A DNA stretch of 63,015 bases, the filler included, from Collodictyon triciliatum (taxonomy: Eukaryota), in the NCBI GenBank assembly GCA_043381765.1. It is 5 parts of 5 records of this genome, joined end to end, with 100 filler letters (N's around TTAATTAATTAA, not from the genome) between each part and the next. Parts side by side here need not be neighbours in the genome. Positions count along the whole stretch, not along the records: positions 1 to 12,121 come from JBHJMP010002235.1; 4 more parts are not named here. One strand, written 5' to 3'. The notes beneath the pieces are model-generated. The model saw only the letters and a program-made list of their open reading frames with translations. It ran no database searches and was not told where the DNA came from. The translations under genes and the position numbers were made by a program. Shown here piece by piece: positions 3,783 to 9,700 of this stretch. Positions within the stretch are counted from its first letter, which is position 1. Every line of letters starts with the position of its first letter.

Positions 3783-6700
3783 TTACAACATCGACTCAAC
3801 CCGCTGTTTCCAAAGCGCAGCCTTCACAGCATCCTTTTGCACTCCAAAGCCCTTTTCATAGCATTCCACCATCATTTCCGCCTGAAACAAGGTGGCAGGT
3901 TGACTTTCACAGTATGAGACAAAGTGCGAGTCAAAGGTGCAGGCACCAAGCGATAAAAGAACATCGCGGTTGAATTTGCTGATGTTCTGCAGGCTGCGGG
4001 CGACTATATTTCCTCCTTCCAAGTGCCGTGTCCCGGTCTTTATGGTTGAACTTGAATCTCCATCCGAGATGTTGGGTGATGAAAAGATGTCTTTTCCTAG
4101 ATAAAAGGAAACAGTATCCTTGTCGCTGCAATTGCTTTCCATCGTGTTTAGATTTGAAATCATGATGAGACGGTCATCACCTGCAGAGAGAATCCACACT
4201 CCACCATCGGGAGATTCGCACGTGTTAAGCCCATTTACTGAACCCGTGTGTGTTGTGATTTGGTGGATTTCAAAGCCATTTGAAATATCCCAGAACCGAA
4301 TGGTTCCATCATAGCTGGACGAAGCAAGCACCCCACCTTCACTGGTGTTTTGAATAAAAGAAACACGATAGACAGTATTTGTATGTCCCTTGAGGATTTT
4401 TGCAGTAGACCAAGTTGATGTGTCCCATAGTCGGATGGAATGGTCTGCACAAGCTGATGCTATATATGACTGCCCATTCATCCCTTTCACTTCGCATACG
4501 CCCCAAACTGCGTCTGTGTGGCCTTCCAATACTTGGACGCATCGCCCAGTGCATAAATCCCAAACTCTGATGGTTTTGTCTCGGCTCCCAGACACCAACC
4601 AAGTCTCACCATTTGGACCCTCTAGTTTTGACAGATAAAGAACGTACCAAGTGTGGCCCTCAAGCTTCATAACCACGTTGCCTGTCACCAAATCCCAAAT
4701 GCAAACGGTTTTATCGCAGCTACTTGAAGCAAGCCAATACTCTCCATTTGGGCCTCGAATAGAAAGTAGGTTTTTGATGTCATTTTCATGACCTTGCAAT
4801 AATTTGATACGAGCTCCGGTGACTGCATCCCATATATGTATTAAATTATCACGCCCCGCTGACGCTATCCAGCATTCTCCATTTGGCCCTTGTGCATAAC
4901 AGACAAAATTAACTCGGTTATTGTGACCTTTCAGCAATTTCACTTGTTTCCCACAGGCAACATCCCAAATGCGCACGGAATGGTCGTTGCTTGCTGATGC
5001 CAGCCATATCTCTCCGTTTGGGCCTGCAAATTGGCATACACTGCTTGCCCAGTCTGTGTGTCCCCTCAGTACTGGACTCGGGATTCCGAATGAAGCTCCA
5101 TTAAGGTTTGCTTCGCTAAAATTGCATCCTACAAGACTGGCATTTGCAAAGTTTACTCCTTCTAAGTTTGTGCCGCCTATGTTCGTACCATCCAGAATCG
5201 CATTTTCCAAGTCTGCATGTGGTATTCTGATTCCAGACAAGTCCATTCCAGCAAAAGAAACATTCATGAAATTGAGAGCAGAAATCGACTCGGCTGCGTA
5301 TTGGGATATCTTTTCATTTTGCCTCGATTGGAAAACAATTGAGAACAGGCAGTTAATGATTTGGTGAATGTCCCATTCAGATTTAAGCTGGACATTTTCA
5401 ATATTTTTTTCGATGAAATTTTTAACGTCAGAGTATTCGATAGCTTCTTTGCCCATGCCAGATGCTTTTTCATGAAGGGATATGTATTCACACAAAATAA
5501 GAGTCCTCTTGTGAGCCCAACCAAGTTTTTCTGAAAATAAGCTTTTCAGGTGCTTAAAATGCCTTGCAGCTTCATCGTGTTGCGATAGACTCGAGAATAA
5601 CTTTTGAACCTTGTTGACTGCTTTCCACATCAAAATGGTTTTAAACATCTCGCTATTTGCACATAAAGAAACAACCCTTTTATAAAGATAGAGGCTGGCA
5701 TCGGTAAAGGACAGCGACTCCAACAACTTTGCTATTTGGAAGATTGTAATTTGGTCATCTAAGGCGGAATGTGTTTCTGTTGTTTTACGTATTTTGGATG
5801 CTTCTTGAAAGTATTCTGCAACTTGGTCCGCCCTGGAATAATTCCAAAACAAAAATTATCGTACAAAAACATGTGTGATATTTAACATGTGATGATGGTA
5901 GTCAGATGAGAATATACCTTCCTAGAATGTAGTTTTGCAGCCCAACATTTTCAAAAGCGGAAGCAACATCAGGGTGTTCATTTCCTAGGGTTCGCCTCTT
6001 GATTTCAAGTGTCTTTGTAAATGCCGCCAAAGCTTGCTGGTGGCTTTTAACCAAAAGATATTTAATGTAGGAATTGGTCATGAAAATATTTAAATTCACC
6101 ACATATTGTCGATTCCAGGCATAGGGCAGTTATTCGACATAATATGAAATTACTCTTTCATTTTGTGATACATCGTGGCTAATTTTTCGTATGCAAAGAC
6201 CACATTTGGATGATTTTCACCGAGAGCTTTTGCAGATACACCAGCAGATTCTTTAAGCATATCAACAGCATCGATGTTTCTGGGTACCATATATGCTTAG
6301 ACTGGAAGCCTCTCTTGGAGCGGGAATGCATAAAGATGAAATTATGGGAAAGCAAACCTATCTTGAGCTTCATAAACAGATGCGATGTTTTGATTTATAG
6401 ACGCAACAGAAGGGTGTTTATCTCCAAATGACTGAACCACAATATCCTTCGATTTTTCATAGTTTTCAAGAGCTAAATTATACCTGAATGTATATTTTCC
6501 ATATTTCCATATTTAATTATAATGAATTATTTAAAAGACCTAATTGGTGTCATTCTCATTCGATAAAATTTGCAAAATTTAACTTCACTCACTTCTTCTC
6601 GGTCATATAAACATGTCCGATGTTTGAGTATGACATTGAAACAGAAGGATGTGCATGTCCTACGTTTTTCAATCGGACTTCCATAGACAGGTAGAAGAGT

Positions 6701-9700
6701 CTCAAAGCCTCATCAAATCTGTGCATTATGATAATATATAAATTACCTTTGAAATTTTGGTGATTTTGAGCATGAGGGATTATTGCCCAAAATGGTATAC
6801 CTTTTTTGCTGCGTGTAGATAGATCCGAATCTATCGTATGATGTCGCAACTTTCATACTGTTCTCTCCAAACAACTTTTTTCGAATATTCAGACTCTTTT
6901 GGAATTGAAAAATGGCTTCTTCCAACCTATAAATTTTGTTTCTTTCAATATTAAAGCGAGAGAGATTAGAAAACCAAGTTTTTCCTTACTTATTTTCTTT
7001 CTGAAATATCTCTCCGATTTCATCATATATCTCAGCCTTCTCCTCATCATCTTCTTGAGAAATATGCTCCTTGATATCGAGGCTTTTGAGAAAATACTTT
7101 ATGGATTCCTTCCAACTAGACAGAGAGTATTTTACATTTAGATAACATAAAATTAAAATGCTATTGAATTTGTAACAGCTACTTTTGCATGTTCTTGTAT
7201 GCCTTTCCCAGTGATAAGAAGTCCAAAGATTTCGATTCTGTTTTAAATTTATCTGTTTAAAATCAACTACAATAATAGAATGCAACGTGCATGAATAATT
7301 TAATTCAAGGAAGTCACCTTCTTTTGTTCTTTTTGCAATTCTTTGGGGAATCGAGGATATCAAATAAGAATTTTCGAATGCTTCTAGAAAGAAATCAACC
7401 AGCATGTCTGCCACTCTTTTTACAGACTATATTGATTGTGCTTGTGTGAATCACAATATTGATTTTATCAAAAAAAAATGATGGTAGTATGAAATTGTTT
7501 TTATTTAAAGATTTTTATTTAAAGAGAGAGTACCCTAATAAGCCCCTGATAGGCGTCTTTGTAATTGCCAACACCTTTGGAATTAATAATACGCCAGCAG
7601 TTAAAAAATTCGTAGCGATACCGGCCTCCGAGCATGCTTTCAACAACCTTTTCATATGAAAAAAATGGTAATTTTTTTATTTTTGAGGTCATAATACGCA
7701 TGAAATGCGAGAAATCAGATTACATTCTCTTTTTTAAGATACTCGACGAGGGCATCATAACATTCGCCAGTGAGGAGCTGGAAGCATATTTCAGCAACTA
7801 ATTCTTCTTCAGCATCAGCAATATCAGCGTATTGTCCAAGTAACCACATTCCATATTCCTCATGTGCTTCAATGGTGGAATTCAAGTCTCCAAAAAAGTA
7901 TCTATCAACTGTTTGGAGGAGGAGCTGATGGAAGTACATGTACCTACTCATACAGTGAATTGAAATTATAAAGAATTTTCTATTTTTCCAATGCATTTCC
8001 ACAAAATAAGGCGTATTATAGAGAAATTTAAAATCCTGGACCATGCATATCAAATTTGTGAGTAACTAAAAAGAGTGTTTCCATTAAAGAGAAAATAACC
8101 TTCCGTTTCTTACAAACAAGGATTCTGATAGAGTGAAGAAGAACGATTTCCTATGGCATAGTTTATTATTGTATTTATTAGACAAAAAAAAAACGGGAAA
8201 AACGGGAAAAACGGGAAAAACATGGAAAACGGGAAAAATTTAGCTGCATACGACTTAGAATTGTATACCATTCAGAAAGACTGAATTTGACTCCGACAGA
8301 TGCTTGGACATATCTATCCAATTCACCCTCGCTTAGACCAATCCTTGAAACGAACAAGACTTTCATAGCATGCTGCACAATCAAAGCATCTAATATTTAA
8401 AAGTCAAAATTCATAAAAAGAAATTTTAGCATTCAATTTTTGTAAACGCCTTGATAGCAATAATTCCTTACCTTGATGGTCATATTTCACTTGCCAGCGA
8501 CTTACTATGAGGTCATATAATTCAATCACCCCGTTCATATTCGTGAGTTTCAGCAACTCCTGGTCAAGTTGCTCATAAATCCCAAACACGCGAATTTCTT
8601 CCAAGACTAGTCTCAGAAATAGAGGATGACCTGATGTTCAAAAAATTACATCCAGCTTTTTGTAAATGAGAATATATATATACTTGAGTACATATTATAA
8701 TTGAAGAATGGAAATGTCCATAAAGAATAATTGAAAAATTCAAAAAAAAAACCTGTCTGTCTTTTACATTCGAGTATCAGACTTATTTGATTTTCAGCCA
8801 GGGTTTTGTCGTATCTTGTCAAATAAGAAACGGTTGCTTGCTCGATCTCTGCAGCATCCAACTGGCCAACTGGAATAATATCAAGGGAACTTTCCCTGGC
8901 AACCTTTTGAGGTAGAAATGGTAAGCCGCATTTTTCTTTATGATTGAGGTCATTTCAAAATGAAAATACCATGCATGTTTCATGGGTATCAATGGTTGAA
9001 GCAACAATCGCCATTCTTTGGGGGGTCTCCTTGGGAAGCCAAGTTAATAAATGAGGGGCTGGTGTATCTTGTGATGGGTGTAACTGATTCACAGCATCGA
9101 TGATGAAGACTATATCAGCTTCCCTACTTTAGATGAGAAACGAGTGTTTGAATTTATTTGATTCATCAGACGACATAATAACCCGAAAAAATGTGATGAT
9201 TAACCTTGGCTCCTCCGCTACAAATTTCATTAAGCCATGGAGCCCTTGGACTTGGAATTCCACATCTTAAATATGATTATTTCAGATTTCAGATTGGTCA
9301 AAATGCCCACATTTATGGTTCGTTTAGACTAACCAACCTGACTTGGCTATAGTAGCTTGCTTATTCGCTTCATAGACTAAAAGGACACTTCTCCAAAAAC
9401 GAACCGAAATACTATGATGAACCCGATTAAAAGAAATCTACATGACTGGGAAGCTTTGCAATTTGTCTAAACTCTTTAACAAGGCTGTTCCAGAACAAAC
9501 CTTTCGACATAGTTACTCAAGCTTGTACAACCCACAAAGTGGTATAATACAAACATATTGCTTCTATTGAGGGCATTCAACTCGCGAACTGTGGCTGCCA
9601 TTAAAGACGATTTTCCGATGCCAGATTCTGCAGCCATGATGGTGATTCCGTGGTTTTCAGATCTTAGTTGCATGTCGACCTAATCATTCAGGTGGGAAAA

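What the first reader, a model, noticed from the sequence alone, without database searches (positions are those of the whole stretch)
5918..7115. One TPR per exon: six consecutive 126-nt phase-2 exons in an NLR-like receptor
Seen: exons 6990-7115, 6801-6926, 6593-6718, 6358-6483, 6154-6279 and 5918-6043 are each exactly 126 nt (42 aa, one KLC-type TPR), with GT-AG introns at the same phase-2 position. Any of them can be skipped, duplicated or swapped without a frameshift. Known: a comparable repeat-per-exon design is described for brown-algal NB-ARC-TPR/ROCO-LRR candidate immune receptors. Inference: a modular, diversifiable sensor domain in a protist STAND protein.
Basis: partly seen in the sequence, partly recalled or inferred. 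Interest (0 to 1): 0.72.

Follow-up and report, generated by a model that had tools for sequence, protein, structure and literature searches.

The report
Six one-repeat TPR exons, frozen array
A protist signalling-ATPase gene really does encode six TPR repeats on six equal 126-base exons, but relatives keep the same six repeats in the same order, so this looks like an old exon duplication and not a working shuffling device.

Summary
Six minus-strand exons (7115-6990 to 6043-5918) are each 126 nt, bounded by AG/GT, and all split a codon after its second base. Intron-free contigs in two public runs confirm five of the seven flanking introns to the base.

The gene (about 11056-3783) encodes DUF4062, a NACHT-type P-loop, the TPR array, a pentapeptide stretch, seven WD40 blades and a conserved tail.

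The "diversifiable sensor" reading is not supported:
- The repeats are only 10-31% identical to each other, and their introns are unrelated.
- The only collinear relatives found, five Diphylleia rotans transcripts, keep the same six units in the same order with no unit gained or lost.
- A unit's best match in another protein sits at the same position in 87 of 104 comparisons.
- What varies in number is the WD40 array, which lies in one intronless 2-kb exon.

The same 126-nt TPR-exon design is already published for brown-algal NB-ARC-TPR genes.

Two points remain open: a similarity break exactly at the TPR exon 1/2 intron, and a frameshift in the NACHT exon.

The parts
3783..11056 (-). STAND NTPase gene as far as it could be modelled: 24 exons, one of them read in two frames. 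The 5' end is not resolved; no start codon was found, and D. rotans homologues carry a further N-terminal CH domain.
   Evidence: Coordinate-based model with AG/GT at every junction. Collinear with D. rotans P0001 at 47.8% identity over 1599 aa. tblastn of P0133 and P0001 hits the same exons.
10449..11056 (-). Three exons encoding the DUF4062 domain
   Evidence: Pfam DUF4062 on exon 10622-10449, E 6.2e-5. Homologue P0133 matches DUF4062 at E 5.8e-11, above the cut-off.
9447..9679 (-). P-loop (Walker A, GIGKS) exon with an internal frameshift near 9505-9499
   Evidence: Translations. D. rotans homologues read through with 5 codons where the window has 7 nt. Weak NPHP3_N, AAA_22 and nSTAND1 hits.
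8970..9126 (-). Walker B exon (hydrophobic run ending in D, IVFIID)
   Evidence: Translation. Weak NACHT hit, E 0.041. Homologue P0133 passes the NACHT cut-off (27.4 vs 26.7 bits) and the nSTAND1 cut-off (32 vs 27.1 bits).
7183..7237 (-). 55-nt exon encoding the first helix that opens the TPR array. It ends at the same phase-2 position as the six repeats.
6990..7115 (-). TPR exon 1 (126 nt, phase 2-2). The most degenerate unit, with an acidic loop.
   Evidence: TPR_12 E 0.01. 39% identical to unit 1 of P0001. Not covered by the X1/X2 contigs.
6801..6926 (-). TPR exon 2 (126 nt, phase 2-2)
   Evidence: Spliced to exon 3 in the X1/X2 contigs.
6593..6718 (-). TPR exon 3 (126 nt, phase 2-2)
6358..6483 (-). 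TPR exon 4 (126 nt, phase 2-2)
6154..6279 (-). TPR exon 5 (126 nt, phase 2-2)
5918..6043 (-). TPR exon 6 (126 nt, phase 2-2)
5241..5832 (-). Start of the 2050-nt last exon: a seventh, degenerate repeat entered at the same phase-2 position, then a helical linker specific to this family
   Evidence: Among the 150 best of 27,779 representative hits, only D. rotans P0019, P0001 and P0002 cover this part.
5088..5240 (-). Pentapeptide-repeat stretch
   Evidence: Pfam Pentapeptide E 5.1e-12, 45.6 bits against a 20.2-bit cut-off. Coordinates are approximate.
4122..5069 (-). WD40 propeller, about seven blades of 45 aa, with no intron
   Evidence: Pfam WD40 E 3.8e-46. Six WD-type motifs spaced exactly 45 aa apart. 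Coordinates are approximate.
3783..4121 (-). Conserved C-terminal tail and stop codon. No Pfam family found.
   Evidence: Aligned with the tails of P0001, P0019 and P0002. Pfam found nothing at E <= 0.001.

Best explanation
The region is the TPR array of a large STAND signalling ATPase from a freshwater protist. Its only collinear relatives in the databases searched are from Diphylleia rotans. The domain order is DUF4062, NACHT-type P-loop, helical domain, six and a half KLC-type TPR periods, pentapeptide stretch, seven-blade WD40 propeller and a conserved tail.

The array was most likely built long ago by tandem duplication of one exon together with its intron. That origin would leave seven introns at the same phase-2 place of the 42-residue period. 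Since then the array has been inherited as a fixed six-unit solenoid in which each unit has its own identity.

By analogy with other STAND proteins (inferred, not shown), the C-terminal repeats would hold the NTPase in an off state and bind a ligand or partner. Nucleotide exchange and oligomerisation would then bring the N-terminal DUF4062 and CH parts together.

On this reading the exon-per-repeat layout is a historical footprint. Diversity in the family comes from point substitutions in the C-terminal half and from changes in the number of WD40 blades, not from skipping or swapping TPR exons.
For: Exon and intron anatomy are shown. Five introns are removed exactly in the X1/X2 contigs and present in the X4 DNA contigs.

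The duplication is old:
- Units are 10-31% identical in protein and 37-49% in DNA.
- Introns show no similarity to each other beyond 8-13-nt matches with E >= 0.09.
- Tandem Repeats Finder does not detect the array.

The array is fixed:
- The window protein, P0001, P0019 and P0122 align across all six units with a single 1-residue gap. P0002 is collinear from unit 2 on.
- A unit's best match is at the same position in 87 of 104 comparisons, against about 1 in 6 expected by chance.
- Mean BLOSUM62 score is 73.6 for same-position pairs (n=52) and 26.8 for other positions (n=260).

The intron position is probably shared with D. rotans. The P0133 open reading frame stops exactly at the end of unit 1, as read-through of a phase-2 GTAA/GTGA intron would give.

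Constraint: 19 synonymous against 12 non-synonymous among 31 listed differences, over 578 synonymous and 2098 non-synonymous sites.

Variation lies elsewhere. The span from the pentapeptide anchor to the tail is 418, 482, 979 and 1856 aa in the window, P0019, P0001 and P0002.

Exon size is not special. The 17 non-repeat exons average about 135 nt, so only the exact period and phase mark the array out.
Against: - The comparison set is small: five transcripts of one species, plus two contigs that appear to be the same sequence. A wider family with variable arrays could exist unseen.
- Contigs drop rare variants, so minor exon-skipped isoforms are not excluded.
- The X1/X2 contigs stop resembling the window exactly at the intron between TPR exons 1 and 2. 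This could be a real exchange of modules at an intron.
- The window copy carries a frameshift in the NACHT exon, so this particular locus may not make the full protein.
- The run type of X1/X2 is only guessed to be RNA. If they were DNA, the joined form would be a processed copy.
- The function of the protein is inferred from its domain family only.
Confidence: 0.68

Rival explanations
1. One reading: the six symmetric exons are a working combinatorial cassette, as proposed for brown-algal NB-ARC-TPR genes. Skipping, duplication or exchange of exons would generate different binding surfaces.
For: - All seven junctions are phase 2, and no exon combination can create a stop or a frameshift.
- The C-terminal half evolves faster than the NTPase half.
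- The X1/X2 transcript contigs switch from about 98.5% identity to under 88% exactly at the intron between TPR exons 1 and 2.
- A D. rotans transcript ORF ends at the same junction.
- The design is linked to shuffling and alternative splicing in brown algae (passages read from PMC3341825 and PMC11378527).
Against: - Unit number and order are the same in every homologue that spans the array, and positional identity is kept in 87 of 104 comparisons.
- The repeats and their introns are anciently diverged.
- There are no relic exons, and no room for them in introns of 63-110 nt.
- The contigs show exons 2-6 once each, in order.
- Overall pN/pS is about 0.17.
Confidence: 0.12
2. The window locus is a recently disabled or mosaic copy, or an assembly that switches between two paralogues or haplotypes. 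The expressed gene seen in X1/X2 would share only its 3' part, from TPR exon 2 to the 3' UTR.
For: - There is a frameshift between Walker A and Walker B, where two D. rotans homologues read through: 7 nt in place of 5 codons.
- The X1/X2 contigs run a further 1244 and 1800 nt upstream without matching the window at 88% or more.
- At protein level the 5' half is normally the more conserved half.
- No X3 or X4 DNA contig covers 6664-7157 (table 2).
Against: - Apart from that one site, all 24 exons are open and have intact AG/GT boundaries over about 1700 codons.
- X3 metagenome contigs match the window's 5' half exactly at 7419-7570, 7613-7763, 10287-10437 and 10867-11017. That half therefore exists in nature.
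- The break lies at an exact exon junction and in register, which is not expected of a random misassembly.
- This rival does not conflict with the main explanation of the exon array.
Confidence: 0.3
3. The introns were gained independently, at the same favourable site of each repeat, after the array had formed inside one exon. On this reading the layout says nothing about exon duplication.
For: - This gene is intron-dense throughout its first 2.3 kb of coding sequence, about one intron per 135 nt.
- The junction codons all lie in a lysine/arginine-rich turn.
Against: - Seven gains at exactly the same base of the period would be needed.
- The junction sequences do not share one proto-splice motif. 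Exon ends are AA, AG or GA and the next exon starts with T, G, A or C.
- The equally repetitive WD40 array in the same gene has no intron at all.
Confidence: 0.05

Closest known systems
[quoted passage not shown]
   Same: Both are STAND NTPases followed by a KLC-type TPR array in which every 42-residue period is a separate 126-nt exon (PMC3341825, passages read). By the paper's search motif the unit starts at the G-K-Y-x-E-A turn, the same turn where the introns lie here.
   Different: - The NTPase here is NACHT/nSTAND1-type with an N-terminal DUF4062, not NB-ARC.
- The array is followed by pentapeptide and WD40 domains.
- Unit number and order are fixed, whereas the paper reports arrays that cannot be aligned between paralogues.
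- The introns are short and hold no inactivated exons.
- Exact intron positions in Ectocarpus could not be compared. The supplementary tables are closed, and Teng et al. 2023 (Plant J) is not held.
DUF4062-NACHT-TPR proteins of the nephrocystin-3 / NWD1 type
   Same: The N-terminal DUF4062, the P-loop with NPHP3_N/NACHT similarity and the TPR_12/TPR_NPHP3-type repeats are shared. That animal NWD1 and NPHP3 combine these domains is recalled, not tested here.
   Different: The NPHP3_N and TPR_NPHP3 scores are below their cut-offs (20.5 vs 24.8 bits in P0133; 89.7 vs 100 bits in P0019). The pentapeptide stretch, the family-specific linker and the tail have no counterpart there. Orthology was not tested.
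NACHT-WD40 STAND proteins of fungi, cyanobacteria and Reticulomyxa filosa
   Same: A NACHT or NB-ARC domain with a long, regular WD40 array whose blade number varies. Several Reticulomyxa and bacterial hits also carry pentapeptide repeats by their precomputed Pfam lists.
   Different: Similarity is confined to the WD40 and pentapeptide parts (29-43% identity over 36-67% of the last-exon query). Of these hits, only the D. rotans proteins were inspected for the six-unit TPR array and the linker.
Repeat arrays built by exon duplication in general (LRR exons of ROCO and gonadotropin receptors, Ig and EGF exons)
   Same: One repeat period per symmetric exon, with all introns in one phase. Brown-algal ROCO LRR exons are 72 bp and phase 2 (PMC11378527, passages). 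Exon duplication is a recognised route of repeat expansion (PMC1553488, passages).
   Different: Those examples are cited for ongoing shuffling or alternative splicing. This array shows neither in the data available.

Membership tests
STAND NTPase, NACHT clade | Walker A (GxxxxGK[ST]) and Walker B (hydrophobic run ending in D) in the right order | tested here: met
   GIGKS in exon 9679-9502 and IVFIID in exon 9126-8970 (translations).
STAND NTPase, NACHT clade | Match to the Pfam NACHT or related STAND model above its curated cut-off | tested here: inconclusive
   Single window exons score below the cut-offs (NACHT E 0.041; NPHP3_N E 0.0089). The spliced window protein could not be handed to the tool. 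Homologue P0133, 56% identical, passes NACHT (27.4 vs 26.7 bits) and nSTAND1 (32 vs 27.1 bits).
STAND NTPase, NACHT clade | Uninterrupted reading frame through the NTPase domain | tested here: not met
   The frame changes near 9505-9499, where P0001 and P0133 are continuous. Whether this is a real mutation or an assembly error is undecided.
NLR in the strict sense (NACHT or NB-ARC plus LRR) | C-terminal leucine-rich repeats | tested here: not met
   Pfam finds TPR, pentapeptide and WD40 domains and no LRR.
KLC-type 42-residue TPR (Pfam TPR_12 / TPR_10) | Match to TPR_12 or TPR_10 with a 42-residue period | tested here: met
   6 of 6 exons hit TPR_12 (E 0.01 to 2.5e-6) and 4 of 6 hit TPR_10. 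The homologous arrays score 126-136 bits on TPR_12. The period is exactly 42 aa.
Brown-algal type shuffling TPR-exon receptors | One 126-nt exon per TPR period | tested here: met
   compared with PMC3341825.
Brown-algal type shuffling TPR-exon receptors | NB-ARC nucleotide-binding domain | tested here: not met
   No NB-ARC hit on the window exons or on P0133; NACHT and nSTAND1 were found instead.
Brown-algal type shuffling TPR-exon receptors | Number and order of TPR exons differ between paralogues | tested here: not met
   Six collinear units in the window protein and in 3 of 3 homologues that span the array. A fourth homologue is collinear over its 4 whole units. 87 of 104 best matches fall at the same position. 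Only transcripts of one other species were available.
Brown-algal type shuffling TPR-exon receptors | Inactivated relic TPR exons in the introns | tested here: not met
   The introns are 63-110 nt. tblastn with the six units finds no further TPR-like stretch anywhere in the 63-kb window at E < 0.1.
Brown-algal type shuffling TPR-exon receptors | Alternative splicing of the repeat exons | tested here: inconclusive
   Two contigs show one form, with exons 2-6 in order. Contigs cannot show rare isoforms, and no raw RNA reads were available.

The most novel reading that the evidence does not exclude
Introns of the TPR array are real exchange points. In the transcripts of runs X1/X2, a sensor module that is 98.5% identical to the window (TPR exon 2 to the 3' end) is joined to a clearly different NTPase module, with the break exactly at the intron between TPR exons 1 and 2. 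A D. rotans paralogue yields a transcript whose reading frame ends at that same junction. If both are real, this lineage recombines NTPase and sensor halves at a symmetric intron, or regulates a sensor-less isoform by intron retention there. The shared 126-nt exon design in brown algae and in a Diphylleia-like protist would then point to an old or repeatedly evolved way of building exchangeable STAND sensors.
Probability: 0.12. Interest if true: 0.6.

Novelty: new member of a known kind. Interest (0 to 1): 0.3.

Why it matters
The finding extends the one-TPR-period-per-126-nt-exon layout beyond brown-algal NB-ARC genes. It now also occurs in a NACHT-type STAND gene of an unrelated freshwater protist, whose only collinear relatives are from Diphylleia rotans.

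It is also a caution. Perfect exon symmetry alone is not evidence of combinatorial diversification. Here the per-exon array is the invariant part of the family, while the array that changes in number (WD40) sits inside one intronless exon.

Comparing the exact intron positions with those in brown algae would show whether this layout is inherited or convergent.

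Tried and rejected
- **Own genome.** None is held, so paralogues in the same genome could not be collected.
- **Sequencing runs.** No RNA holder is listed on record. X1/X2 are only guessed to be RNA, and their spliced contigs were used for what they bridge, not for expression level. Parts of the gene without cover in X1-X4 were not interpreted.
- **Metagenome scan** with the family-specific linker: 1 of 63 candidate stretches was confirmed, L001, at 31% identity over residues 122-248. It gives no help on exon structure and was not followed.
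- **Last-exon search among longer proteins**: dominated by WD40 proteins. Only the D. rotans hits P0001, P0002 and P0019 were used.
- **Search with P0019 residues 100-640**: added P0122 and P0133. The other listed hits were taken to be generic TPR proteins from their names and Pfam lists, without further inspection.
- **Representative search with the 260-aa linker part**: 27,779 hits, nearly all to the pentapeptide stretch. Of the 150 listed, 3 cover the whole query, all from D. rotans.
- **Kinase ORF 17594-20038 used to place the organism**: only kinase-domain matches at 48% identity or less.
- **Repeat detection.** Tandem Repeats Finder and intron-against-intron BLAST found no DNA-level repeat.
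- **C-terminal tail.** I guessed it was Sel1-like; Pfam does not support that.
- **Short-intron rescue of the frameshift.** A 33-nt or 16-nt intron would be far shorter than the 56-181 nt of the other introns and would remove conserved residues. Rejected by reading.
- **Literature.** Teng et al. 2023 (Plant J) is not held. The supplementary tables of PMC3341825, which hold the exon lists, are closed, so exact intron positions in Ectocarpus could not be compared. Searches for earlier descriptions of this family found nothing relevant ('Diphylleia' + 'NACHT'; 'DUF4062' + 'NACHT' + 'TPR'; repeat-per-exon TPR terms).
- **Not run.** No structure prediction or complex prediction was run. Neither would bear on the question.

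Full report
**Observation.** Joined together they give an open frame in which each exon begins with the third base of a split codon.

The pattern extends by one junction on each side. A 55-nt exon (7237-7183) ends at the same phase-2 position, and the 2050-nt last exon (from 5832) is entered at it. There are therefore seven consecutive phase-2 introns, of 63-110 nt. The last two bases of these exons are AA, AG or GA, so no combination of exons can give a stop or a frameshift.

Each exon alone matches Pfam TPR_12 (E 0.01 to 2.5e-6). The period is one 42-residue KLC-type repeat, but the register is shifted. Exon residue 1 corresponds to column 18 of the 42-column TPR_10 model. An exon thus carries the second helix of one repeat, the linker, and the first helix of the next.

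**Independent confirmation.** One search of public runs gave two small runs of one study (X1 and X2, type guessed as RNA) and several freshwater metagenomes. Laid on 3700-11100, X1 and X2 each hold one long contig (4043 and 4628 nt). These contigs join 5831/5917, 6043/6154, 6279/6358, 6481/6591 and 6718/6801, which removes five of the predicted introns to the base. DNA contigs of metagenome run X4 (5559-5939, 6111-6322, 6397-6553) carry the introns. The splice sites are therefore used. The caveat is that the run type is only a guess; in a DNA run such a contig would be a processed copy.

**The gene.** A model built from coordinates has 24 exons from 11056 to 3783, with AG/GT at every junction. 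It is collinear with a D. rotans protein over 1599 residues.

The domains, in order, are:
- DUF4062
- a P-loop NTPase with Walker A and Walker B
- a helical region
- the TPR array
- a family-specific helical linker
- a pentapeptide stretch
- about seven WD40 blades
- a conserved tail with no Pfam match

Homologue P0133 passes the NACHT and nSTAND1 cut-offs, and upstream it carries a CH domain. The 5' end of the window gene is not resolved. The non-repeat exons average about 135 nt, so a 126-nt exon is ordinary in size for this gene. Only the exact period and phase are special. The last 2 kb, including all the WD40 blades, has no intron.

**Age of the array.** The six units are 10-31% identical to each other in protein and 37-49% in DNA. 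Their introns share nothing beyond 8-13-nt chance matches. Tandem Repeats Finder does not see the array. No other TPR-like stretch lies in the window, and the introns are too short to hide relic exons.

**Relatives.** Three protein searches and one exhaustive representative search found only five collinear relatives. All are EukProt transcripts of Diphylleia rotans: P0001, P0002, P0019, P0122 and P0133.

Across the TPR region, the window protein and P0001, P0019 and P0122 align with a single one-residue gap. P0002, truncated at its N-terminus, is collinear from unit 2 on. Taking every unit of every protein, its best match in another protein lies at the same position in 87 of 104 cases. Mean scores are 73.6 for same-position pairs (n=52) and 26.8 for other positions (n=260).

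The six-unit array, with each unit's individuality, therefore predates the divergence of all these genes, and no unit has since been lost, gained or moved. The P0133 reading frame ends exactly at the end of unit 1. Read-through of a phase-2 GTAA or GTGA intron would give this result; the same read-through in the window gives lysine then stop. This suggests the intron position is shared with D. rotans.

**What does vary.** Against P0001, the N-terminal half is 54-69% identical and everything from TPR unit 1 onwards is 31-55% identical. This fits a faster-evolving sensor half. The number of WD40 blades differs widely. The span from the pentapeptide anchor to the tail is 418, 482, 979 and 1856 residues in the window, P0019, P0001 and P0002. 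P0002 also has a 156-residue insertion after the seventh repeat. The array that changes in number is the one without introns, and the array with one exon per period is invariant.

**Selection.** The X1/X2 contigs differ from the window at about 1.5% of positions. Of the 31 listed coding differences, 19 are synonymous and 12 are not, over 578 synonymous and 2098 non-synonymous sites. That gives a ratio near 0.17 (five further differences were not listed by the tool). Only four listed differences fall in TPR exons, too few for a separate test.

**Comparison with what is known.** Zambounis et al. 2012 (PMC3341825, passages read) describe 124 TPR exons of 126 nt / 42 aa in 13 Ectocarpus NB-ARC loci. 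They report inactivated exons in the introns and arrays that cannot be aligned between paralogues. Teng et al. 2024 (PMC11378527, passages read) describe 72-bp phase-2 LRR exons with alternative splicing in ROCO genes, and cite a 2023 paper on NB-ARC-TPR genes that is not held.

The present gene shares the exon design and the STAND-plus-TPR logic. It differs in several ways:
- the NTPase class (NACHT-type, with DUF4062)
- the added pentapeptide and WD40 domains
- the short, clean introns
- a fixed array

It is a new member of a known kind of gene layout, in a different eukaryotic lineage. Searches for an earlier description of this family found none.

**Unexplained.**
1. *A similarity break at an intron.* The X1/X2 contigs are about 98.5% identical to the window from the 3' UTR to TPR exon 2. 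They then run a further 1244 and 1800 nt upstream without matching the window at 88% or more, apart from short islands. One island has a loose end that encodes a diverged copy of exon 8150-8100. The break lies at the intron between TPR exons 1 and 2. The 5' half is normally the more conserved half, so this is not what a simple orthologue would show. It could be an exchange between paralogues at that intron, a chimeric contig, or a chimeric assembly. No DNA contig of X3 or X4 covers 6664-7157.
2. *A frameshift.* The NACHT exon changes frame near 9505-9499, where two D. rotans homologues read through: 7 nt in place of 5 codons. This locus may be a recently disabled copy, or the assembly may be wrong there.

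**Verdict.** The interpretation as an actively diversifiable cassette is not supported by the comparisons that could be made. An old, frozen exon duplication in a conserved STAND gene is the best reading. The similarity break at the exon 1/2 intron is the one lead that keeps a more interesting reading alive.

Noticed in passing
window 9499-9505 (minus strand): A frameshift lies inside the NACHT P-loop exon of the same gene. The window has 7 nt where two D. rotans homologues have 5 codons. All the other exons are intact.
   Followed up: partly
window 6927-6989, the intron between TPR exons 1 and 2: Transcript contigs of runs X1/X2 are about 98.5% identical to the window downstream of this intron and under 88% identical upstream of it. 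A D. rotans homologue (P0133) has its reading frame end at the same junction.
   Followed up: partly
window 4122-5069 (minus strand): The WD40 array, with a 45-aa period, lies in one intronless exon. Its blade number differs several-fold among family members (about 7, 8, 19 and over 25), in contrast with the fixed TPR array.
   Followed up: partly
window 46112-46261 (+): A U12 minor-spliceosome snRNA gene (Rfam RF00007, 72.1 bits, E 4.5e-12), so the organism has U12-type splicing.
   Followed up: no
window 37833-38222 (-): An open frame whose end recalls the C-terminal zinc-ribbon region of TnpB/Fanzor-type nucleases. The motif is recalled from memory, and Pfam found no family at E <= 0.001.
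   Followed up: partly
window 13442-16273 (+): A divergent protein-kinase domain (Pkinase E 9e-12) is followed by a block of Sel1 repeats (E 7e-44). They are possibly one gene.
   Followed up: no
window 300-3300 (+), 40992-43056 (-), 44634-45587 (-), 46241-46756 (+), 47488-47973 (-): Neighbouring genes by Pfam: Kelch and BTB, a class II aminoacyl-tRNA synthetase core, an arrestin-fold protein, an AMP-binding enzyme, and a dynein motor AAA region.
   Followed up: no
window 12010-12348, 24341-24440, 46968-47067, 59169-59268 and other N runs: Twelve runs of N (44-222 nt) sit inside or beside simple-sequence repeats, often as pairs of 44 N. The window is a gapped assembly, which bears on how far its continuity can be trusted.
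   Followed up: no
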